DNA of 63,982 nt, filler included, from Stramenopiles sp. TOSAG23-2 (Eukaryota), in assembly GCA_900128395.1 (NCBI GenBank). It is 4 parts of 4 records of this genome, joined end to end, with 100 filler letters (N's around TTAATTAATTAA, not from the genome) between each part and the next. Parts side by side here need not be neighbours in the genome. Positions count along the whole stretch, not along the records: positions 48,605 to 63,982 come from LT649711.1; 3 more parts are not named here. One strand, given 5' to 3'. How positions within the stretch are numbered: the first letter of the stretch is position 1; each line of letters begins with the position of its first letter. The notes under the pieces are model-generated. The model was not told the origin of the DNA. It did not search any database and worked only from the letters and a program-made list of their open reading frames with translations. Shown piece after piece: positions 16,115-59,911 of this stretch. The position numbers and the translations under genes were made by a program.

Positions 16115-16214
16115 NNNNNNNNNNNNNNNNNNNNNNNNNNNNNNNNNNNNNNNNNNNNTTAATTAATTAANNNNNNNNNNNNNNNNNNNNNNNNNNNNNN
16201 NNNNNNNNNNNNNN
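16115..16214. other. Artificial scaffold linker
   Basis: N-run + TTAATTAATTAA + N-run, 100 nt, with stops in all frames. Confidence 0.95.
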
Positions 16215-32318: not shown

Positions 32319-32418
32319 NNNNNNNNNNNNNNNNNNNNNNNNNNNNNNNNNNNNNNNNNNNNTTAATTAATTAANNNNNNNNNNNNNNNNNNNNNNNNNN
32401 NNNNNNNNNNNNNNNNNN
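32319..32418. other. Artificial scaffold linker
   Basis: N-TTAATTAATTAA-N, 100 nt. Confidence 0.95.
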
Positions 32419-37757: not shown

Positions 37758-38006
37758 TACGTCGTACAAGAAAAAGAAATAATTATATATTATGGTACAT
37801 GTATCATTCAATCAACNNNNNNNNNNNNNNNNNNNNNNNNNNNNNNNNNNNNNNNNNNNNNNNNNNNNNNNNNNNNNNNNNNNNNNNNNNNNNNNNNNNN
37901 NNNNNNNNNNNNNNNNNNNNNNNNNNNNNNNNNNNNNNNNNNNNNNNNNNNNNNNNNNNNNNNNNNNNNNNNNNNNNNNNNNNNNNNNNNNNNNNNNNNN
38001 NNNNNA

Positions 38007-46800: not shown

Positions 46801-48498
46801 AAAATAAAATTGTGACCAAAATGACACGGGCTGGTGGAGCCTTTGGTGGAAAGTTAACGAGGCATTTACCTTGTGCAATGGCTGCTACACTCGCAAGCTT
46901 GAAACATCAAAAGGCTATTAAAGTTATCAATGAAAGAGTTGATGATTTAGTTGTGACTGGAGGAAGAGAAAGGGGGAAAGCTATTTATACGGTTGGTTTT
47001 AATAATAATGGCAAAATTTTAGCCTTGAAGTTAGATTTTTATATGGATTCTGGCTTTTCAATTGATATTTCAGATGGTGATCTGAAAATGGCGATGTATT
47101 GGGCTGATAATGTCTATAATATTCCGGCGTAAGTATAGTATATTTTGAAATAATAATCTTGTGTTAATAACAACGCATATCCTTAGCTATAGAAGCAAAT
47201 TTCAATTTATTTATTTTACTAACATTTGTTATATACATATATTTTTCAACAGTTGGAGTTCAAATGGATATTTATGCAAAACAAATACGCCGACAAACAC
47301 TGCTATGAGAGCACCAGGATTGGTGCATAGCATACATACCATGGAACATGTTTTACATAATATTTCGAAAATTTTAAATTTGAATCCTGTTAGTACAAGG
47401 GCATTAAATTTTTATAATGTAGGAGATGTTACGCCATATGGGCAAGTCATTGAGCGTAGCACATTGAAAGAAACTTGGCAACAATTACAACAAACGTTTG
47501 ATCAGCTAAAATCATCTGTTGATAAATTCAATGGGGAAAATAGATGGGTGAAACGAGGCGTACAACTAACTCCTGTGAAATATGGTATGCAGCATAATGG
47601 ATATAATATCCATGCCATTGTAAATATATTTTCTGATGGTTCCATATCTTTAGCTACTGGAGGATTAGAGGTAGGCCAAGGATTGAATACGAAAGTCGCA
47701 CAATGTTGTGCATATGCTTTAAAAGCTCCGTTAGATTTAATTGACGTGTCCGTACCAAATTCAACAGATAAAATTGCAGTTAGCAGTAACACTGGCGGCA
47801 GTGCCACTAGCGAATGTGCATGTGAAGCAACTATGTTAGCCTGTGCTATAATAAATAAAAGGTTAGAGCCATATAAAAAGAATTATTCAACTTGGAAGGA
47901 AATAATTAATGCTGCTAGCAACGATAATGTTTTCTTATCAGCAACTGCACAATATTGCCCACCGTTGTTAACACCAACGGATTATTTTAGATATTTTGTA
48001 TGGGGTAGTGCAGTGTCTGTAGTAGAATTAGACGTATTGACAGGGGAAACACAAATTTTGCGTTCTGATATTGTATATGATTGCGGCGTTAGTTTAAATC
48101 CATTGATTGATCTTGGCCAAGTGGAAGGTGCATTTTGTTTTGGAGTTGGAACATTTTTAACAGAAGAAGTTGTTAGAGATGAAAAAACTGGACAGATGCT
48201 AAGTAATGGTACGTGGGATTATAAACCACCAACTAGTAAATGTATTCCATGTGATTTTAATGTTGCATTTTTAAAAGGCGCAACTGATAATCCACATGGT
48301 GTATTATCTTCAAAAGCAACCGGGGAACCGCCATATTCATTAGCAAATAGTGTGTATTTTGCATTAAGATATTGCATTGATGAAGCTAGAAAAGAAAATA
48401 AATGTACAGAAACGGAATATAATTTAGATGTTCCAGCGACGCAACAGCGTATTTTAAATGCATGTGGTGGGACTAGTGCTGAGTTTGTGATAGGGTAG
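43856..48498 (+). CDS. Xanthine dehydrogenase/aldehyde oxidase family molybdoflavoprotein; introns 45710-46136 and 47129-47252
   Basis: 2Fe-2S motifs (GTKIGCNEGGCGAC, QCGFCTPG, GNICRCTGY), FAD region, Moco region (QATGEAKY, HFYMETQ, GGAFGGK, EVGQGLNTK, SKATGEPP). GT-AG introns join the three ORFs in frame. Start codon uncertain. Confidence 0.9.
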
Positions 48499-48504
48499 TT
48501 ACCC

Positions 48505-48604
48505 NNNNNNNNNNNNNNNNNNNNNNNNNNNNNNNNNNNNNNNNNNNNTTAATTAATTAANNNNNNNNNNNNNNNNNNNNNNNNNNNNNNNNNNNNNNNN
48601 NNNN
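48505..48604. other. Artificial scaffold linker
   Basis: N-TTAATTAATTAA-N, 100 nt. Confidence 0.95.
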
Positions 48605-51185: not shown

Positions 51186-54100
51186 ATGACGTTAATTTTT
51201 ATATATTTATTAATAATAATAGTAATAACTGCAACGGTAATGGAGTGCAACGCTTTTGGAGAGAAAGAAGAAATATGTGCGGGGCAGAAGGATGTGATGC
51301 ACAGGTTACAACGGGATGGAAAGTTGTGCGATAGCGCGGAAGATTGGAAGGCATGGTTTCATTTGAATTACCCTGGTTGTGGAGAAGACGACAAGTGGGC
51401 AGAAAATAATTTTAAAAATGACGGTGTGAAACTGGTGAAAGAAGAACGTACTACTGGTGATAATGTTTTTATACGTGGCCTGAGTGGGGTATACGAAAAG
51501 GAGCAGAAAGCGGAAACGAAGCAGGAGAGACACTTTGGGAAAATGAACACAGGAAAAATGCCTTTGACGGAGAAGGGAAAACATTTGCAATTGGGTTTTC
51601 AGGAACGACGGCTTGATGATGACAGTTCACGTGGAAGGGAATTGATAAGTGAATGGGATGGGACGGCAACGAAGGGGTCATTTAATCTTGTTAGGAAAGT
51701 AACGAAGACGAGTGATACGATTGATGTGATGGGTACGCTGGAAATTATTGGAATTGTTGGGAGTGACGGGGTTCGGCCAGCAATTGATGGTGGTGGTACG
51801 CCGGGGTGTTGGAGTAGTTGTCCTGGGCATCGGGTGTTTATAGTACGTAATAGTGATGAATATAAATTACGATTAACAAATATAACAGTTCAGAATGGAT
51901 ACACGGTACGTTTTCACATTTTATTTTATTATGCTAATTGCTCCAGACTCGTATCTAATTAGCATTTATTCTTTCTTTTTATAACACTGCGTATGTCCCC
52001 CTTTTTATCAAACACAAAGGACTAACATTTGTTTTTTATTATACTTTTGATATGGTATCTCTGTTATGATGTACAGAGCGTAAGTAAACGTTGAATGGTG
52101 TAGTCTTCTTTCTTTTCATCAAACACAAAGGACTAACATTTGGTTTTTATTTTATTCTTTATATTGTATCTCTGTTATGATGTACAGACCGTGAGTAAAC
52201 GTTGAATAATGCAGTCTTCTTTCTTTTCATCAAACACAAAGGACTAACATTTGTTTTTTTATTATATTTTTGATATTGTATCTCTGTTATGACGTACAGG
52301 GCGTAAGTAAACGTAGTCTTCTCTCTTTTCATCAAACACAAAGGACTAACATTTGTTTTTTATTATATTTTTGATATTGTATCTCTGTTATGATGTACAG
52401 GGCGTAAGTAAACGGTGAATGGTGTAGTCGTCTCTCTTTTCATCAAACACAAAAGACTAACATTTGTTTTTTATTATACTTTTGATATTGTATCTCTGTT
52501 ATGATGTACAGCAAGTAAGTAAACGTTGAATGGTGCAGTCTTGTTTTTTTCCATCAAACACAAAGGACTAACATTTGTTTTTTTATTATAAAGGGCGGAG
52601 GTTTCTGGATATTTGGTGGATCAGTTTCAATCAGTAGCTGTACTGTGTCAAATAACACAGTCGTAAGTAGTATTTGCTAAAATACGTAGTCTTCTTTCTT
52701 TTCATCAAACACAAAGGACTAATGTTTGTTTTTTTATTAAATTTTTGATATTGTATCTCTGTTATGATGTACAGATCGTAAGTAAACGTTGAACGGTGTA
52801 GTCTTCTTTCTTTTCATCAAACACAAAGGACTAACATTTGTTTTTTTATTATATTTTGATATTGCATCTCTGTTATGATGTACAGGCCGTAAGTAAACGT
52901 TGAATGAAGTAATCTTCTTTCTTTTTATCAAACACAAAGTAAACGTTGAACGGTGTAGTCTTCTTTCTTTTCATCAAACACAAAGGACTAATGTTTTTTT
53001 TTTTATTATATTTTTGATTTTGTATCTCTGTTATGATGTACAGGGCGTAAGTAAACGTTGAACGGTGTAGTCTTCTTTCTTTTCATCAAACACAAAGGAC
53101 TAACATTTGTTTTTTTATTATATTTTGATATTGCATCTCTGTTATGATGTACAGGCCGTAAGTAAACGTTGAATGAAGTAATCTTCTTTCTTTTTATCAA
53201 ACACAAAAGACTAACATTTGTTTTTTTATTATATTTTGATATTGCATCTCTGTTATGATGTACAGGCCGTAAGTAAACGTTGAATGAAGTAATCTTCTTT
53301 CAAGTAAACGTTGAACGGTGTAGTCTTCTTTCTTTTCATCAAACACAAAGGACTAACATTTGTTTTTTATTATATTTTTGATATTGTGTCTTTGTTATGA
53401 TACACAGGCCGTAAGTAAACGTTGAATAGTGAAGTTGTCTTTCTTTTTATCAAACACAAAAGACTAACATTTGTTTTTTAATTATATTTTGATATTGTAT
53501 CTCTGTTATGATGTACAGAGCGTAAGTAAACGTTGAATGGTGTAGTCTTTTTTTTTTTCATCAAGCACAAAGGACTAACATTTGGTTTTTATTATATTTT
53601 TGATATTGTATCTCTGTTATGACGTACAGGGCGTAAGTAAACGTAGTCTTCTCTCTTTTCATCAAACACAAAGGACTAACATTTGGTTTTTATTATATTT
53701 TTGATATTGTATCTCTGTTATGATGCACAGAGCGTAAGTAAACGTTGAATGGTGAAGTCGTCTTTCTTTTTATCAAACACAAAAGACTAATGTTTGTTTT
53801 TTTATTATATTTTGATATTGCATCTCTGTTATGATGTACAGGCCGTAAGTAAACGTTGAATGGTGTAGTCGTCTTTCTTTTCATCAAACACAAAGGACTA
53901 ACATTTGGTTTTTATTATATTTTTGATATTGTATCTCTGTTATGACGTACAGGGCGTAAGTAAACGTAGTCTTCTTTCTTTTCATCAAACACAAAAGACT
54001 AACATTTGTTTTTTTATTATATTTAAGGACTAACATTTGGTTTTTATTATATTTTTGATATTGTATCTCTGTTATGATGTATAGCAAGTAAGTAAACGTT

Positions 54101-57100
54101 GAATGGTGCAGTCTTCTTTCTTTTCATCAAACACAAAGGACTAACATTTGTTTTTTTATTATAAAGGGTGGAGGATTCTATATAATGGGTGGATCACTCT
54201 CAATGAATAGCTGTACTGTGTCAAAGAACACAGCCGTAAGTAGTATTTGCTAAAATACGTAGTCTTCTTTCTTTTCATCAAACACAAAGGACTAATGTTT
54301 GTTGTTTTATTAAATTTTTGATATTGTATCTCTGTTATGATGTACAGATCGTAAGTAAACGTTGAACGGTGTAGTCTTCTTTCTTTTCATCAAACACAAA
54401 GGACTAATGTTTTTTTTTTTATTATATTTTTGATTTTGTATCTCTGTTATGATGTACAGGGCGTAAGTAAACGTTGAACGGTGTAGTCTTCTTTCTTTTC
54501 ATCAAACACAAAAGACTAACATTTGTTGTTTTATTATATTTTTGATATTGTATCTCTGTTATGATGCACAGGCCGTAAGTAAACGTTGAATGAAGTAATC
54601 TTCTTTCTTTTTATCAAACACAAAAGACTAACATTTGTTTTTTTATTATATTTTTGATATTGTATCTCTGTTATGATATATAGTATGTAAGTACATGTTG
54701 AATGGCGAAGTTGTCTTTCTTTTCATCAAACACAAAGGACTAACATTTGTTTTTTATTATATTTTTGATATTGTATCTCTGTTATGACGTACAGGGCGTA
54801 AGTAAACGTAGTCTTCTTTCTTTTCATCAAACACAAAAAACAACAAGAACATTTACGAATAGATACAAAAAAGAGACAGGATATCGTCGGTTACGCCATA
54901 CAAGTTTTTTATTATATTTTTGATATTGTATCTCTGTTATGATGTACAGTCCGTAAGTAAACGTTGAATGGTGAAGTCGTCTTTCTTTTCATCAAACACA
55001 AAGGACTAACATTTGTTTTTTATTATATTTTGATATTGTATCTCTGTTATGACGTACAGGGCGTAAGTAAACGTAGTCTTCTTTCTTTTCATCAAACACA
55101 AAAAACAACAAGAACATTTACGAATAGATACAAAAAAGAGACAGGATATCGTCGGTTACGCCATACAAGCAAGAAACAAACATGACCAAGCGACTTATAA
55201 AGTTCAAATTGATGCTTGCGACGATGGCTCTGCGACAACATGCAGCGATAACGACTTGTGGTCTTTTTATCAAACACAAAAGACTAACATTTGTTTTTTA
55301 TTATATTTTTGATATTGTATCTCTGTTATGATGTACAGGCCGTAAGTGAAACGTTTGTATCCTTTCTCTTAGGTCGTATTGTGTAGGAAATACAAATAGC
55401 TAACACTTATATTTGTTTTTATTTACATGTTGTTGTAATATACTAGGGTGGGGGGATTTATATAGATTCAGGAAAATTAGTAATAATATCAAGTCGTTTT
55501 ATTGATAATAAAGCTCTATCTAATAAAGCTTCTACACCAGGGAAGGGACCAAACATCTGCGCCTTACAAACATGCACGCTTATTAACACCACTTTCAATC
55601 CACCAAATTCAATTGCTGGGAAAGCACCGCCACGACTATGCACTGCACAGGTATGTCAACGTGCAATCCCAACATTACCCAATTTCGGCATCAATTGCAT
55701 CAACAAAGCAGTAACAGCAACCGGCAACAACGAAGGTGTTACATGCCTCCCATGCTCTCCGGGTACTTACCTTGCTGAAAATTCATCGTATCCGTCATGC
55801 GTGCCATGTTTCCCTGGAAGAGCAACAAATAAACACGGTCAAGCATCGTGCGACGCTTGCTCACCTGGAAAATATGCAAATACGCAAGGATTAGAAACGT
55901 GCGCATATTGTGACCCAGGAAAATATGGAAACAACACAGTAACGTGCATCGACGTACCGCCTGGCACATACCCAACTAACTGCTACGATCCATCATCAAG
56001 CAAAGGATGCAGCGAAATTGAAGATTGCCCGCGTGGGTTTTACTGCCCTTCAAAGACACTAGAACCTGTTCGATGCAAACCTGGAACCTACACAAATATT
56101 ACCGGTTCCCCACAATGTTCAACGTGTACGAGCGGACGTGTAAATATTGAATACCAGGCAACCAAGTGCAACGCTTGCGTGAAAGGAAAGTATGCACCTC
56201 GTGAAGGCTTAGAAACATGTACTACTTGCAATGATGGAAAGACAACGTTTAATAAAGGCAGCGAAGAATGCAGTGATTGCCCTATTGGAAAATCTGGAAC
56301 AAACGGCATTTGTAATAGTTGTACAAACGGAAGGTATCAAGACGAAGTTGGTCATACGACATGTAAAAACTGTAAAGAAGGAAAACGTTCTGCCGGAACA
56401 ACATGTACACAGTGTCTTGCTGGCAAATATTTATCAGGAAAAATATGCAAAGGGTGTAGTACCGGGAAATACTCTGCAGCTGGAGCAGCAAAATGTTTAG
56501 ATTGCCCAAAAGGAAAATGGACAAACCATGATTCGTCTGGATGCAACGATTGCCCTGCTGGATTTTACGGTTTATTAGAGGGCCAAACAAACCAAAGTGA
56601 TGCTTGCGTACAGTGTGAGAAAGGAAAATTTAGCTCCTCGATTGGCGCCGATTCAAAAGATTTGTGCAACGACTGCCCACTCGGTACAGCTAGCAATGTT
56701 GTAGGGGCAAATAATTCCAAGTTTTGTTTGCCGTGTGATAAAGGAAAAGTAGCAAATACGTCTGGATCAATAGTATGTTCAACTTGTCCAAATGGTGCAT
56801 GGGCTACTGGTGGAAAAGATGTAACCACTGGTACAGGATCAACATTATGCCGTGAATGCGGATTAGGCAAATTTTTAAATAAGACAGTGTGTTCATTATG
56901 CCCTGTTGGAAAGTTCCAAGACCGTTTAGGCCAGATTGCGTGTAGAAAATGTAAAACGGGGCATTCAATCCCAACACGAACAACATGTACCATGTGTCAT
57001 GCTGGCGGATATTTAAAAGGAAACGAATGCGTTGCTTGTGAGAAAGGAAAATATTCTTTAGCTGGTAATAGCAAATGCGTGGGGTGTTTACTTGGCCAGT

Positions 57101-59911
57101 ATGCAAAGTTAGATATAAAGAACCCAAATATTTACCCCGTTGCGACATCGTCCGGGTGTTATTTGTGTAGATCAGGATTGTACGGTATTAAACAAGGTGA
57201 AACAAAAGCATCTAATGCTTGCCATAGCTGCCCAAAAGGAAAATTCGGTACAGCAACGGGCGCTGATTCGATAAAATTGTGCAACGACTGCCCACTCGGT
57301 ACAGCTAGTAATGTTGTAGGGGCAAACAATTCCAAGTTTTGTTTGCCGTGTGATAAAGGAAAAGTAGCAAATATGTCGGGATCAAAGTTATGTCATGTAT
57401 GTAGTGTTGGTTACGTTGCAGGCGGAGCTAGTATTAGTAATGGCCAATTGGGAGCTACCTTATGTCAGCCATGTAGTGTTGGAAAACATGGAGTAGATAA
57501 AGCTGAAAAATGCGAGTCGTGTAGTCAAGGGAAATTTCAAAATCGCGAGGGTACTAAACGATGCAATGAGTGCCTTCCTGGGTTTTACAGTGGCTTCGAA
57601 GGATTGCCAAAGTGTATTGAATGCCCCCCTGGGCGTGCAAACACATTTAAAGATAGACATGCATGCAATGCATGCGAAATTGGGCGATTTGCTAATGTAT
57701 CTGGTTTAAAAGAATGTTTCCGTTGTGGTGATGGCGAATCAACTTATATTAATGGTAGCGTTGCATGTTTGCCGTGCCAAAAGGGCAAAGCAGGTAGAAA
57801 TGGTAATTGTAATTTTTGTTATGGAGAGAACCAATATTCAGACGTCGAGGGTTTAAAACACTGCAAAATTTGCCCTGGTGCCACTGTACCGGATAAAGTT
57901 CATATTTTATGTACATCAAGAAAAACCCATGGCCCTGGACCTACAATTACTGTTGTTCATGCAAGCAATTTTTATCGATCGTTGTACGTTGAATGGGACT
58001 TGCCACAATTAAATAATACCAGTCAACAAATACAAGATATAATAATTGTTCCTATTAACGCAGATACAGGAAAGGAAGAAACTAAGTCAATTACTAAAGT
58101 TGGCGGTATTGCAACATCAATCAGTACAAAACCATTGTTGAAATTAGTTACAAATCAAGTGTATCAGGTAAGATTGTTTATCAAATACAATAATTTTGTA
58201 AGTGAAAATGCAACGTGGGGACCTCGTTGGACGACAACAAGCGATTGTAGCACAAGTGAAGTTTATTTAGGTATGTATATTCTCTTCTCATAGTTATATC
58301 ACTTGATTTTATATATTAACACTTTTTTTCTCTCTCTCATTTTAACTATAGGTACAGGCAGTAATGATATGGCAAATTGGCAATGCAGAGAATGCCCATT
58401 GCATGCGTCGTGCGATGGTTTGGTAACTTGGTCTAGCGTTGAGGCAAAGTTTGGAAATTGGAGGGATACGGATGATAATAAATTTTACAGTTGTTTACGT
58501 CCACAATCGTGTCTTGGCGCACCAAACGATGCATTGGTATCACGTTTTCCACGTGAAGCGGCAGTAAAAAATTCAACCGAAGGCTGTGCACATACTTTTA
58601 CTGGAAGATTATGTGCAACATGTAAGAAAGGGTATGCACGGAGTACGAAGCGTGGGTCGTGTTCACGGTGCCAAGAACCAGGTAACACCTTGTTGTTTAT
58701 CAGTGCTGGTGTAGCTGGATTGGTTGGGACATGTGTTTTGATACGGATCACAGTATTCAAACCGCGCGAAGTACATTTTTCTGACGGTGTTAAAAAGATC
58801 TTCCTTTCGTATTTACAATTGGCTTCATTAGCATCTGCTGTTAATGTACCGTGGACAGCATCGTTTCGCCAATTATTTGCTATTCAACAGATATCTACAA
58901 GTATTGCAGACGCATTTTTATCGCTTGATTGCGTCTTGGAATTTATGCCAACATGGAACGTTTTTTTAATAAAGTTGTTTGGTGTGTTACTTTTACCAGT
59001 CCTTGTGTTGCCTATTGCATATGTTGCCATCCGATTTTGTTGTAAACGATTCCGTAGCAATGATAGTAATTGGGTCGATCAATTTGTAGCAACTGTGGTA
59101 TTGTTATGGTATTTAGCATTTCCATCTATTGTACAAAAGTTAACTATGTTGATAACATGTACTGAAGAAATAAACGGTGTACAATACGTTGTCGTTGACC
59201 CTGAAATTGTTTGTTGGGGGGGGCGAGCACCGTGATATTGCTTTGGTAGCAGGTTTGTTTGGATTATTGGCATATGTAGTTGGTTTACCATTGTTGGGGG
59301 TCTATGTATTGAAAACTGTAGATCGTTCAACATCAGGTGCACAACTACGGTACGGTATATTGTACGATGGGTACTCAAAGCAGTTCTGGTACTGGGAAAT
59401 AACGGTTGTGTTACGTAAGCTTGCAATTATCTTGATTGGGTCGTTTTTAGATGGACAAGAGCAAATTTTATCAATACTTTTAGTGCTGTTTTTGGTGATC
59501 TACTTTACAGCAACGTGTCAACCGTTTGAGAATGTAGAGTTACTGCGCTTGGAGCTGGTATCCCTTGCCGTTTGTTTTATAACGTTTTGGATTGGTAGTT
59601 TATTTTTAGAAGAAAGTTCAAAGTGTAGCAATGGCGAAGATGTATTTTGCAAGTTGGGTGCAGTTGTGGTGATAGTTTTAAATGTTGTTGCAGCAGTGTA
59701 TTTGGCAGGTATTTATTTGCAAGAGAAGGTGTCAGAGAAGAAAGAGTGGCTGATGAAATGGTATCGTAGGTGTAATATTTGTGGTTGTTGTTGTATGGAG
59801 GAGAAGGAAAAAGTGCGTCGAGAATCATTGTATGAGATGGTGTCAGATGGTGGTGACAATGGGATAGGAGAAGTAAATGTAGAGGGTGAAGATATGTACC
59901 ATGAGCTTTAA
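51186..59911 (+). CDS. Large surface receptor-like protein: signal peptide, parallel beta-helix (GGG-I/F repeats), GCC2/GCC3-like Cys-rich repeats, FN3-like segment, multi-pass TM region. Exons 51186-51905, 52594-52662, 54167-54235, 55447-58270 and 58352-59911, plus putative 3-nt microexons
   Basis: Phase-0 exons encode GGGFWIFGGSVSISSCTVSNNTV, GGGFYIMGGSLSMNSCTVSKNTA and GGGIYIDSGKLVIISSRFIDNKA, in frame with the CxxCxxGxY-repeat ORF. Phase-1 intron at 58271-58351. TM region has YGILYDGY...WYWEITVVLRK. There is a +1 frame slip in a G8 run at 59216-59223. Confidence 0.8.
52002..55347 (+). repeat. Tandem array of near-identical ~98-110-nt intron-like units separated by 25 three-nucleotide putative microexons
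   Basis: Unit: GTAAGTAAACGTTGAA...CATCAAACACAAAG-GACTAAC-ATTTGTTTTTTATTATATTTTTGATATTGTATCTCTGTTATGATGTACAG followed by NNN. It contains a donor, a branch point, a T-rich tract and an acceptor. Confidence 0.85.

What the first reader, a model, noticed from the sequence alone, without database searches (positions are those of the whole stretch)
52002..55347. Apparent satellite is a tandem array of intron units separated by 25 single-codon (3-nt) putative microexons
Seen in sequence: each repeat unit starts with a canonical donor (GTAAGT, once GTGAGT), carries a branch point (GACTAAC/GACTAAT) and a T-rich tract, and ends in YAG. Exactly 3 nt lie between each AG and the next GT, and these are strongly variable while the flanking splice signals stay nearly constant. 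Array 1: AGC 52077, ACC 52188, GGC 52300, GGC 52401, CAA 52512. Array 2: ATC 52775, GCC 52886, GGC 53044, GCC 53155, GCC 53266, GCC 53408, AGC 53519, GGC 53630, AGC 53731, GCC 53842, GGC 53953, CAA 54085. Array 3: ATC 54348, GGC 54460, GCC 54572, TAT 54684, GGC 54795, TCC 54950, GGC 55060, GCC 55339. None is a stop codon, variation is mostly at codon positions 1-2 (non-synonymous: S, T, G, Q, I, A, Y), and all flanking exons are phase 0, so any subset keeps the frame. The arrays fall at the variable loop before each GGG beta-helix rung: NGYT-[STGGQ]-GGGF, NNTV-[IAGAAASGSAGQ]-GGGF, KNTA-[IGAYGSGA]-GGGI. Inference: this is a codon-per-exon system for diversifying a surface receptor's loops, either by combinatorial skipping (Dscam-like, at single-residue resolution) or by unequal crossing-over between units. 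I do not know of a described example at this scale.
Basis: partly seen in the sequence, partly recalled or inferred. Interest (0 to 1): 0.92.

Follow-up and report, generated by a model that had tools for sequence, protein, structure and literature searches.

The report
Tandem arrays of single-codon exons
A protist membrane-protein gene appears to spell three surface loops one amino acid at a time, using 25 three-base exons separated by near-identical short introns, and related genes in other organisms show the same odd layout.

Summary
All 25 YAG-NNN-GTRAGT sites in the window lie at the stated positions (1.07 expected by chance). They form three ~111-nt repeat arrays between the 69-nt rung exons of a beta-helix / Ephrin_rec_like / multi-pass membrane protein gene (51186-59908, + strand).

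No RNA data could be obtained, so inclusion of the triplets in mRNA is inferred, not shown. The comparative evidence is strong:
- Six independent metagenome relatives (31-77% identical in exon 1) carry the same AG-NNN-GTAAGT arrays at the same place. One, L009, has 19 triplets in four arrays. Their intron sequences are unrelated to the window's.
- Relatives without these introns encode 2-11 residues at these positions, never zero.
- Codon positions 1-2 are about ten times more variable than the flanking intron. Position 3 and the splice signals are almost fixed.
- 27 of 28 introns have a CTAAY branch site with no AG before the acceptor.
- 0 of 54 triplets is a stop.

Best reading (0.7): these are real single-codon exons encoding inter-rung loops, and the arrays grow and shrink by duplication of intron-plus-codon units. 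Combinatorial skipping is untested. Nine literature searches found no description of such arrays. This is a new variant of micro-exon architecture.

The parts
51186..51905 (+). Exon 1. It begins with ATG and a hydrophobic N-terminus that reads like a signal peptide, followed by the N-terminal domain, and ends ...N-G-Y-T in phase 0.
   Evidence: ORF. 24 homologs and 49. 40 of the 41 hits in which the exon-end motif was found stop by read-through into an intron just after N-G-(Y/W/F/H)-x. No Pfam hit.
51906..52593 (+). Array 1: six introns (171, 108, 109, 98, 108 and 79 nt) and five 3-nt exons. AGC 52077, ACC 52188, GGC 52300, GGC 52401, CAA 52512.
52594..52662 (+). Rung exon 1, 69 nt and 23 codons, starting GGGF and ending NNTV.
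52663..54166 (+). Array 2: thirteen introns and twelve 3-nt exons. ATC 52775, GCC 52886, GGC 53044, GCC 53155, GCC 53266, GCC 53408, AGC 53519, GGC 53630, AGC 53731, GCC 53842, GGC 53953, CAA 54085. Introns 52889-53043, 53269-53407 and 53956-54084 carry partial internal duplications.
54167..54235 (+). Rung exon 2, 69 nt and 23 codons, starting GGGF and ending KNTA. It differs from rung exon 1 at 12 of 69 nt.
54236..55446 (+). Array 3: nine introns and eight 3-nt exons. ATC 54348, GGC 54460, GCC 54572, TAT 54684, GGC 54795, TCC 54950, GGC 55060, GCC 55339. Intron 54798-54949 lacks a CTAAY motif. Introns 54798-54949 and 55063-55338 contain unrelated inserted sequence. The last intron, 55342-55446, is unique sequence.
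55447..58270 (+). Large exon: the last beta-helix rung (GGGIYID...) followed by cysteine-rich Ephrin_rec_like repeats.
   Evidence: Pfam PF07699 at 3.1e-39 with 12 stretches, plus PF07562 and PF23091. 42-44% identity to P0001. The exon end is read from the sequence.
58271..58351 (+). Ordinary 81-nt intron (GTATGT...TAG), not related to the repeat unit.
   Evidence: Sequence printed. Same-frame ORFs on both sides and continuity of homology with P0001, L008 and L009.
58352..59908 (+). 3' coding part: DUF7630 and a TRP-like multi-pass membrane region. The stop codon is at 59909-59911. There is an apparent 1-nt frame shift at the G8 run 59216-59223.
   Evidence: Pfam PF24633 at 5.9e-07. PF06011 at 3.5e-05 scores below its cut-off. 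ORFs. tblastn with the L008 and L009 products and the sequence printed.

Best explanation
The 25 triplets are genuine single-codon exons of one gene. The gene has a signal-peptide-like N-terminus, a right-handed beta-helix, Ephrin_rec_like cysteine repeats and a TRP-like membrane region.

Each ~108-nt unit is a complete, self-sufficient intron with a strong GTAAGT donor, a CTAAY branch site, a T-rich tract and the first AG as acceptor. I infer that the introns are removed one at a time by intron definition, most simply in 5'-to-3' order, so that each removal turns the next triplet into the end of a normal-sized exon.

If all triplets are kept, the three arrays encode 5, 12 and 8 residues, rich in Gly, Ala and Ser. 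These would form the turns between successive beta-helix rungs.

The arrays arise and change length by tandem duplication or unequal exchange of an intron-plus-codon unit, so one event adds or removes one residue and one intron. The introns are kept alike by concerted evolution, while selection acts on the codons.

Shown: the anatomy, its conservation in relatives, and the pattern of variation. Inferred: inclusion in mRNA, the order of splicing, and the mode of array turnover.
For: 1. Conserved architecture. Of 9 metagenome loci that encode relatives of exon 1, 6 show AG-NNN-GTAAGT triplets directly after the homologous exon end:
- L009: 19 triplets in four arrays.
- L004: 3. L006: 3. L002: 2. 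L001: 1. L005: 1.
The short contigs end inside the array. L009 repeats the whole plan, with 69-nt GGGF rung exons between the arrays, and 23 of 23 introns have GTAAGT, CTAAC and no AG before the acceptor.

2. The intron units of different loci are not recognisably alike (z from -0.4 to 3.9 in 14 between-locus comparisons). So the 3-nt spacing is conserved while the intron sequence is not.

3. Relatives that encode this region in continuous exons always have residues at these positions:
- L008, a single 1297-codon ORF: 8, 6, 5 and 2 residues.
- L007: 3, 3, 8, 4, 4 and 2.
- P0001: 11, 3 and 3.
- P0136: 7, 2 and 4.
- P0137: 2, about 8 and about 8.
- P0193: 4.
None is 0.

4. Variation is concentrated in codon positions 1-2. 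In the window pi is 0.59 and 0.68 against an intron mean of 0.06. In L009 it is 0.55 and 0.66 against 0.14. The third position is C in 22 of 25 window triplets and T in 16 of 19 L009 triplets, with no variation at the four-fold sites of GGC, GCC, ACC and TCC. That pattern needs selection on the encoded residue.

5. In L009 the residue before GGG is Leu or Val in 4 of 4 rungs. Three are encoded by a triplet (GTT, CTT, CTT) and one by the ordinary exon (CTC).

6. 0 of 54 triplets (25 in the window plus 29 in the loci) is a stop.

7. The window's rung exons differ at 12 of 69 nt, while the flanking introns differ at 1 of 112 and 3 of 79.

8. The rung region is a beta-helix in relatives: Pfam PF13229 at 9.7e-20 for L007 and 9.8e-09 for L008. 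In the AlphaFold model of L008:774-1454 (pLDDT 82.8, pTM 0.86) the loop positions fall in non-strand segments of lower confidence. That mapping is my own residue count.

9. Single 3-nt and even 1-nt exons are known to be spliced (abstracts; passages of PMC8831610).
Against: - There is no transcript evidence of any kind. No RNA run was obtainable, and the three protein searches returned only ORFs called on genomic DNA.
- Intron 54798-54949 has no CTAAY branch motif, and two units of array 3 carry unrelated inserts.
- The gene has an apparent 1-nt frame shift in a G8 run at 59216-59223. This copy could be decaying, or the assembly could be wrong there.
- Units within an array descend from one another, so the counts of sense codons and of exact 3-nt spacing are not independent observations.
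- Rung numbers differ between relatives, so loop positions are matched by the repeat motif, not one to one.
- Array unit numbers rest on a short-repeat assembly that I could not check with long reads.
Confidence: 0.7

Rival explanations
1. Intronic minisatellite. Each array is removed as a whole, either from the first donor to the last acceptor or by stepwise splicing that always skips the triplets. The protein then has no residues between N-x-(V/A/T) and GGG, and the AG-NNN-GT junctions are a by-product of duplicating a splice-site-bearing repeat.
For: No RNA evidence contradicts it. All donors and acceptors are alike, so long-range pairing is chemically possible. A 23-residue rung without an extra loop is within the range of beta-helix repeats (my knowledge, not tested). 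One L009 array has only one triplet, so very short loops are tolerated.
Against: - It does not explain why exact 3-nt spacing with sense triplets is kept in 7 independent genes (the window and six of the nine loci) whose intron sequences have diverged beyond recognition.
- It does not explain why positions 1-2 of the spacer vary about ten times more than neighbouring intron columns while position 3 does not.
- Every relative read in a continuous exon has at least 2 residues at these positions.
- In 27 of 28 introns the nearest acceptor is the first AG after a consensus branch site, which is where splicing is expected to occur.
Confidence: 0.12
2. Introner-like mobile intron. The unit is a transposable intron family that has piled up in this gene, and the triplets are target-site remnants.
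For: The introns are near-identical. Introner families are described in marine picoeukaryotes and many other lineages (PMC9860276, abstract and passages; PMC3488318, passage), and some have 3-9 bp target-site duplications.
Against: - All 26 copies of the unit's core in 64 kb lie in this one gene, in tandem and in register.
- Each related gene has its own unrelated unit at the same place, which fits local duplication rather than a dispersed family.
- Neighbouring triplets are mostly different, unlike target-site duplications.
- Higher-order periods of 2-3 units indicate block duplication.
- A genome-wide test was impossible because no genome is held.
Confidence: 0.05
3. Decaying copy. The architecture is real for the gene family, but this particular gene is a pseudogene whose arrays are no longer processed.
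For: There is an apparent 1-nt frame shift at the G8 run 59216-59223. One intron lacks a branch motif, and unrelated inserts occur in array 3.
Against: - The exons total about 5.2 kb (51186-59908 less the introns) and are otherwise open, including a 941-codon exon without a stop.
- All 25 triplets are sense codons and all 28 donors are intact.
- A one-base error in a homopolymer is a common assembly fault (my knowledge).
Confidence: 0.1
4. Assembly artefact. The arrays are collapsed or chimeric repeats that do not exist as such in the genome.
For: Tandem repeats of ~111 nt at 85-94% identity are hard to assemble. The window contains masked N runs elsewhere.
Against: Six independently assembled metagenome contigs from other organisms show the same layout at the same gene position. 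The units differ from one another enough to be placed uniquely. The existence of arrays is not in doubt, although unit numbers may be.
Confidence: 0.03

Closest known systems
Micro-exon genes (MEGs) of Schistosoma
   Same: Genes for proteins with a signal peptide in which runs of very short, frame-preserving exons (3-81 bp according to the abstract of PMC10526429) encode part of the product. Protein variation by alternative splicing of these exons is the theme of the papers listed. That the original description is DeMarco et al. 2010 is recalled, not read.
   Different: MEG micro-exons are of mixed sizes and are separated by long introns (up to 5 kb, same abstract). They are said to make up most of the coding sequence (recalled). 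Here every micro-exon is exactly one codon. The introns are short (79-276 nt) and are copies of one another. The arrays are confined to three loops of a protein of about 1,800 residues (my estimate from the exon lengths in parts, not computed in a call) that is otherwise encoded by large exons. No sequence relationship was tested or is expected.
Isolated ultra-short micro-exons of animals and plants
   Same: These are exons of 3 nt, and in plants of 1 nt, flanked by ordinary splice sites, and they are shown by RNA data to be spliced in. Examples: the 3-bp exon of Drosophila homothorax, the 3-base exon of MAP4K5 and the 3-bp exon of RPS24 (abstracts), and the 1-nt exons of plant APC11 and VPS55 (PMC8831610, passages). 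The plant 1-nt exons also have conserved GTRAGT donors. Some relatives carry the same letters inside a larger exon, as L007 and L008 do here.
   Different: They occur singly or at most a few together. Examples are two adjacent exons of 5 and 12 nt in rice and three of 3, 18 and 22 bp in RPS24. I saw nothing saying that their flanking introns are copies of one another. Here up to 12 follow one another, each between copies of the same intron.
Introns born from tandem arrays or by tandem duplication
   Same: Repeat units that carry both splice signals, so that duplication creates new introns. Duplication of an intron plus three exon bases, as proposed here, is a special case of the tandem-duplication model. 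Sources: Zhuo et al. 2007 PNAS, where only the title was seen, in the reference list of PMC3488318, the paper itself is not held and its content is recalled. Tandem-duplication intron gain was seen in the titles and abstracts of PMC2891723 and PMC4974935.
   Different: As I recall them, those cases concern introns arising inside repeats or single duplications. They do not concern ordered arrays in which each unit contributes one codon to the protein and the arrangement is conserved across a gene family.
Modular repetitive genes with homogenised introns (spider Flag silk gene, Hayashi and Lewis 2000; recalled, not read here)
   Same: Iterated exon-intron modules in which the introns are more alike than the exons, explained by concerted evolution. 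Here the figures are 1 of 112 and 3 of 79 intron differences against 12 of 69 exon differences.
   Different: The silk exons are hundreds of bases long and encode repeat motifs, not single residues.
Dscam-type exon arrays and recursive splicing (recalled)
   Same: Tandem arrays of alternative exons that can multiply isoforms. Recursive splice sites juxtapose an acceptor and a donor (AG|GT), as here.
   Different: Dscam exons are full-sized and mutually exclusive, under dedicated RNA-pairing control. Recursive sites leave zero bases, whereas here three bases would remain at each step. Whether any choice is made here is unknown.

Membership tests
Micro-exon (3-nt class) | Short internal exon bounded by a functional acceptor and donor | tested here: met
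   25 of 25 triplets lie between YAG and GTRAGT. 27 of 28 introns have a CTAAY branch motif with no AG before the acceptor. This tests the signals only, not their use.
Micro-exon (3-nt class) | Inclusion in mature mRNA | not testable with these tools
   No RNA run was listed. No spliced product appeared in the protein searches.
Micro-exon (3-nt class) | Keeps the reading frame and encodes residues present in relatives | tested here: met
   All triplets are 3 nt, in phase 0, and none is a stop. Relatives with continuous exons have 2-11 residues at the same motif positions.
Schistosome-type micro-exon gene (MEG) | Most of the coding sequence is built from micro-exons separated by long introns | tested here: not met
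   Only 25 codons come from micro-exons. The rest lies in exons of 69 to 2824 nt, and the introns are 79-276 nt.
Schistosome-type micro-exon gene (MEG) | Protein variants produced by alternative splicing of the micro-exons | not testable with these tools
   No RNA data.
Introner (mobile intron family) | Many near-identical copies as introns of unrelated genes across the genome | tested here: inconclusive
   In the 64-kb window, 26 of 26 copies are in this gene. No genome is held. Relatives carry different units.
Introner (mobile intron family) | Target-site duplications or terminal inverted repeats | not tested
   By eye only: neighbouring triplets mostly differ. No formal search was made.
Right-handed beta-helix (Pfam PF13229) with Chlam_PMP-like repeats | Profile match over the rung region | tested here: inconclusive
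   Met for relatives: L007 at 9.7e-20 and L008 at 9.8e-09, with PF02415 at 1.9e-05 for L007. The window's own rungs are split into 23-codon exons that could not be submitted as one protein, and exon 1 alone has no hit. Foldseek on the L008 model lists beta-helix enzymes, but none at E <= 0.001.
Ephrin_rec_like cysteine-repeat membrane proteins | PF07699 repeats above the curated cut-off | tested here: met
   3.1e-39, 132.9 bits against a cut-off of 23.1, 12 stretches.
Recursive splice site | Acceptor and donor directly juxtaposed, leaving no exon bases | tested here: not met
   Three bases separate AG and GT at all 25 sites.

The most novel reading that the evidence does not exclude
The arrays are a splicing-level diversity generator. 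All donors and acceptors within an array are equivalent and every exon is one codon in phase 0, so any donor can pair with any later acceptor. One gene could then yield up to 2^25 in-frame isoforms that differ in the length and residue order of three exposed beta-helix loops. On top of this, unit duplication and exchange would give rapid germ-line turnover. That would be a single-residue-resolution counterpart of Dscam or the schistosome micro-exon genes, in a family of surface proteins found in many metagenome assemblies.
Probability: 0.25. Interest if true: 0.95.

Novelty: new variant of a known kind. Interest (0 to 1): 0.85.

Why it matters
If the triplets are spliced in, this is the most extreme packing of exons I could find described: up to twelve consecutive exons of one codon each.

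- Splicing mechanism. It would show that intron definition alone can process exons far below any exon-definition limit, and do so repeatedly.
- Intron gain. It would be a live example of intron gain by tandem duplication, in which each event adds one intron and one residue.
- Annotation. It exposes a blind spot. 40 of 41 database ORFs for this family stop at the first array, and the window's own recorded product is only exon 1 plus read-through.
- Protein evolution. It points to a way in which loop length and composition of a beta-helix surface protein can change in single-residue steps, by recombination and possibly by alternative splicing.

Tried and rejected
RNA evidence:
- The look-up of sequencing runs was busy five times. 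When it answered it listed no RNA holder, so none was listed and read laying could not be used.

Genome and earlier notes:
- No genome is held for this window, so a genome-wide search for the unit or for other arrays was impossible.

Search for spliced products in protein collections:
- Exon 1 against cluster representatives gave 24 hits.
- The exon-1 profile against 90% clusters gave 49 hits.
- A profile of the last rung plus the start of the cysteine region gave 2 unrelated hits.
- All relevant hits are ORFs called on genomic contigs or gene models. None shows a spliced array.

Other readings tested and dropped:
- A repeat protein on either strand: no ORF crosses an array, and the longest is 97 codons.
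- A known RNA family in the units: the only Rfam hit is sub-threshold (E 0.37).
- A structured intron RNA: fold z-score 0.03.
- Homology of intron units between loci: not detectable.

Steps of limited use:
- A crude scan for introns elsewhere in the window was not a validated set and is not used.
- In one search I ran tblastn by mistake with all 120 stored proteins. Only the P0001 row is used.
- Foldseek gave beta-helix enzymes, but none at E <= 0.001.

Literature: nine searches were run. None returned a paper describing tandem arrays of single-codon exons. Supplementary files were not consulted. Zhuo et al. 2007 is not held.

Full report
**What is in the sequence**

The region 51906-55446 of the + strand holds three tandem arrays of a ~111-nt unit. 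Tandem Repeats Finder reports periods of 111-112 nt with 85-94% matches, and higher-order periods of 213, 265 and 323 nt. A scan for YAG-NNN-GTRAGT finds 25 sites in the whole 63,982-base window. Shuffled sequence gives 1.07 on average and never more than 5. A 21-nt stretch around the putative branch site occurs 26 times with up to 3 mismatches, all between 52006 and 55288 on the + strand, against 0 expected. No ORF on either strand crosses an array; the longest is 97 codons. The units match no Rfam family (one sub-threshold hit, E 0.37) and have no unusual fold (z 0.03).

**The gene**

The window is AT-rich (33.7% G+C), with short introns that have GTAAGT-type donors and CTAAY branch motifs. 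No genome is held for it.

The arrays lie inside one + strand gene:
- Exon 1, 51186-51905, starts with ATG and a hydrophobic N-terminus and ends N-G-Y-T.
- Two 69-nt exons, 52594-52662 and 54167-54235, each encode a 23-residue unit that starts GGGF and ends N-N-T-V or K-N-T-A.
- A 2824-nt exon, 55447-58270, starts GGGIYID and carries 12 Ephrin_rec_like stretches (PF07699, 3.1e-39).
- An ordinary 81-nt intron follows (58271-58351).
- The 3' part runs to 59908, with DUF7630 and a TRP-like multi-pass membrane region. The latter scores below Pfam's cut-off.

The best database relative of the large exon is P0001, with 44% identity over 100% of the query. The C-terminus matches those of L008 and L009.

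**Intron quality**

With this exon model the 28 introns are 79-276 nt long, with 108 nt the commonest length.
- Donors: GTAAGT 26, GTGAGT 1, GTACGT 1.
- Acceptors: CAG 23, TAG 3, AAG 2.
- 27 of 28 have a CTAAY motif 21-51 nt before the acceptor, and in all 27 there is no AG between that motif and the acceptor.
- The exception is 54798-54949, where unrelated sequence replaces the branch region. The same insert, in longer form, lies in 55063-55338.

By the ordinary rules of 3' site choice, each unit is therefore a complete intron whose nearest acceptor is the one just before a triplet.

**Variation**

Across the 25 units the mean pairwise difference is 0.59 at triplet position 1, 0.68 at position 2 and 0.23 at position 3. 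Over 44 ungapped flanking intron columns the mean is 0.06 and the maximum 0.33 (entropies).

The triplets are GGC x8, GCC x7, AGC x3, CAA x2, ATC x2, ACC, TAT and TCC. The third base is C in 22 of 25. At the four-fold degenerate third positions of GGC, GCC, ACC and TCC there is no variation at all.

So the units are young or homogenised: third positions and introns are alike. Yet the two bases that decide the amino acid differ widely. That needs selection on the encoded residue, either to diversify it or to hold old differences against homogenisation. Neutral spacers in a satellite would not show it.

The rung exons tell the same story. They differ at 12 of 69 nt, while the introns that follow them differ at 1 of 112 and the introns that precede them at 3 of 79.

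**Relatives**

An exhaustive search with exon 1 found 24 cluster representatives, and a profile search found 49 proteins. Nearly all are ORFs called on short metagenome contigs. In 41 of the 49 my motif search found the end of exon 1. Of those 41, 40 run on for 5-50 residues of intron read-through and stop. One of the 40 is the window's own recorded product, P0179. The remaining one (P0193) encodes a four-residue loop and a full rung before the read-through begins. The intron after N-G-Y-x is thus general in the family, and gene callers fail at it.

A scan of metagenome contigs with the exon-1 alignment returned nine loci. Six show AG-NNN-GTAAGT triplets straight after the homologous exon end:

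| Locus | Exon-1 identity | Triplets |
|---|---|---|
| L001 | 77% | CTT, then the contig ends |
| L002 | 75% | GGT, CCT |
| L004 | 37% | CGT, GAT, TAT |
| L005 | 31% | GAT |
| L006 | 31% | GCT, AAT, TCT |
| L009 | 49% over the C-terminal part | 19 |

L003 ends inside the first intron.

L009 reproduces the complete plan. Exon 1 ends N-G-Y. It is followed by eight triplets, a 69-nt GGGF rung exon, three triplets, a second rung exon, one triplet, a third rung exon, seven triplets, and then a large exon with the last rung and cysteine repeats. All 23 of its introns have GTAAGT, CTAAC and no AG before CAG. Triplet positions 1-2 are again highly variable, at 0.55 and 0.66 against an intron mean of 0.14, which T-tract length differences inflate.

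The residue before GGG in L009 is Val, Leu, Leu and Leu in the four rungs. The first three come from triplets and the fourth from the ordinary exon.

The intron units of the window, L002, L004, L006 and L009 are not recognisably alike (z between -0.4 and 3.9 against shuffles). The one-codon spacing has therefore outlived the intron sequences, or has arisen repeatedly at the same place.

None of the 54 triplets is a stop, and none ends in G. These counts are not independent, because units descend from one another.

Two close relatives, L005 and L006, have exon 1 678 of 697 aligned bases identical and the first intron 157 of 160 identical. They differ in the one comparable triplet, GAT against GCT. 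The window and L001 differ at all three bases of their first triplet, while the intron before it is 130 of 142 aligned bases identical with 29 gap columns. These are two anecdotes, and the units may not be orthologous.

**Relatives without arrays**

L008 is a single 1297-codon ORF with no intron at all. L007 has one intron after N-G-Y and then a continuous exon. P0137 is one ORF on a 14-kb contig. P0001 and P0136 are gene models.

Residues between the N-x-A end of a rung and the next GGG:

| Relative | Loop lengths |
|---|---|
| L008 | 8, 6, 5, 2 |
| L007 | 3, 3, 8, 4, 4, 2 |
| P0001 | 11, 3, 3 |
| P0136 | 7, 2, 4 |
| P0137 | 2, about 8, about 8 |
| P0193 | 4 |

None is zero. These loops are rich in Gly, Asp, Asn and Ser, like the residues the triplets would encode.

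If all triplets are kept, the window's three arrays would give loops of 5, 12 and 8 residues, and L009's four arrays would give 8, 3, 1 and 7. Rung numbers differ between relatives, so these positions are matched by the repeat motif, not one to one.

**Structure**

The rung regions of L007 and L008 match Pfam Beta_helix (9.7e-20 and 9.8e-09). L007 also matches the Chlam_PMP repeat (1.9e-05, above its cut-off). The AlphaFold model of L008:774-1454, made with a six-row alignment, has pLDDT 82.8 and pTM 0.86, with short strands in a helix-like repeat. By my own residue count the four loops fall in the non-strand segments 85-100, 117-129, 146-157 and 174-182, where confidence dips. Foldseek lists pectin methylesterases, chondroitinase B, AlgE4 and tailspikes, but none at E <= 0.001. 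That agrees with a right-handed beta-helix without proving it. The window's own rungs could not be tested as one protein because they are split.

**How it most likely works**

Shown: complete intron signals around every triplet, conservation of the layout, and selection-like variation at codon positions 1-2.

Inferred:
- Each unit is spliced on its own by intron definition.
- Two spliceosomes can hardly sit 3 nt apart, so removal is probably sequential. After one intron has gone, the next triplet is the last codon of a long exon in front of a perfect GTAAGT donor.
- The uniformly strong donor may compensate for the absence of the usual exon-side match, since no triplet ends in G.
- Arrays grow by tandem duplication of an intron plus three exon bases. 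This creates a new intron and duplicates one residue, and unequal exchange then moves, adds or removes units.

Four observations fit this:
- The 2- and 3-unit higher-order periods.
- The recombinant units that have lost a junction and become longer introns (52889-53043 and 53269-53407).
- The shared first unit (ATC) of arrays 2 and 3 and the shared last unit (CAA) of arrays 1 and 2.
- The differing unit numbers in relatives.

Whether all triplets are always included, or donors sometimes pair with later acceptors to give in-frame variants, cannot be told without RNA.

**Caveats**

- There is no transcript evidence. The run finder listed no RNA holder, and the protein collections held no spliced form.
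- The gene has an apparent one-base frame shift at the G8 run 59216-59223, where homology passes from one frame to the next with no room for an intron. This is either an assembly error or decay of this copy.
- One intron lacks a branch motif.
- Unit numbers depend on the assembly of a repeat.
- L004 continues after three triplets into unrelated coding-like sequence, so some family members may be fragments.

**Comparison with what is known**

Single exons of 3 nt are documented in Drosophila hth, MAP4K5 and RPS24 (abstracts). Single exons of 1 nt are documented in plant APC11 and VPS55 (passages of PMC8831610). In the plant case some relatives carry the same letter inside a larger exon, as L007 and L008 do here.

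Schistosome micro-exon genes combine many frame-preserving exons of 3-81 bp separated by long introns (abstract of PMC10526429). They are linked to protein variation by alternative splicing (titles and abstracts).

Intron gain by tandem duplication, and introns arising from tandem arrays, are described. I saw titles and abstracts, and the Zhuo et al. 2007 title in a reference list. That paper is not held.

Introner families are dispersed, not tandem. The word 'tandem' does not occur in PMC9860276.

I recall, without having read them here, the homogenised introns of the spider Flag silk gene, Dscam exon arrays and recursive splice sites.

None of these has ordered arrays of single-codon exons between copies of one intron. 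Nine literature searches, using terms for 3-nt or single-codon exons, consecutive or tandem micro-exons, introners, tandem arrays and intron gain, returned no such description. Supplementary files were not seen.

**Verdict**

The reading of the triplets as coding micro-exons in beta-helix loops is well supported by comparative evidence but not shown at the RNA level (confidence 0.7). The diversification-by-skipping idea remains open (about 0.25). I rate this as a new variant of the micro-exon kind, of high interest.

Noticed in passing
window 59216-59223: A run of eight G marks an apparent 1-nt frame shift in the membrane region of the same gene. Homology to L008, L009 and P0136 passes from the frame of ORF 58294-59232 to that of ORF 59174-59908, with no room for an intron. 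It is either an assembly error in a homopolymer or a sign that this copy is decaying.
   Followed up: partly
window about 54838-54905 and about 55103-55262: Two units of array 3 contain the same unrelated inserted sequence, about 68 nt in one and about 160 nt in the other. In the first it replaces the branch-site region, so intron 54798-54949 has no CTAAY motif. The origin of the insert is unknown.
   Followed up: no
window 52594-52662 vs 54167-54235 and flanking introns: The two rung exons differ at 12 of 69 nt. The introns after them differ at 1 of 112 nt and those before them at 3 of 79 nt, so the introns are more alike than the exons.
   Followed up: yes
all 54 triplets (window, L001, L002, L004, L005, L006, L009): No triplet ends in G. 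The third base is C in 22 of 25 in the window and T in 26 of 29 in the relatives. Common descent of units explains part of this. A constraint on the base before the donor is possible but was not tested.
   Followed up: partly
window units and L009 units, last 15 nt of the introns: Both otherwise dissimilar intron families carry an ATGATG-like motif just before the acceptor (GTTATGATGTACAG in the window, CGATGATGATTGCAG in L009). This could be chance, distant common origin or a splicing signal.
   Followed up: no
L008 159-4049 and L007 2183-3973: L008 is a complete family member in a single 1297-codon ORF without introns. L007 has one intron after N-G-Y, and that intron resembles the first intron of the array-bearing L005 and L006. 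Arrays therefore seem to be gained or lost between fairly close relatives.
   Followed up: partly
L004 11290-12436: After three triplets the contig runs into unrelated, coding-like sequence without any rung exon. This may be a truncated copy or a chimeric contig.
   Followed up: no
window 47149-48495: The upstream + strand exon encodes the C-terminal molybdopterin-binding domains of a xanthine dehydrogenase / aldehyde oxidase-type enzyme (PF20256 at 6.2e-66, PF02738 at 1.9e-08). It is preceded by a 124-nt candidate GTAAGT...TACTAAC...CAG intron at 47129-47252 from the unvalidated scan.
   Followed up: no
window 16115-16214, 32319-32418, 37817-38005, 48505-48604: Runs of N total 453 bases. Three of the four sites are paired 44-base blocks 12 bases apart. 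None touches the finding.
   Followed up: no
protein collections: The window's own recorded product (P0179, 240 residues) is exon 1 plus intron read-through. 40 of 41 family ORFs in the collections are truncated in the same way, so the family is systematically mis-annotated.
   Followed up: yes
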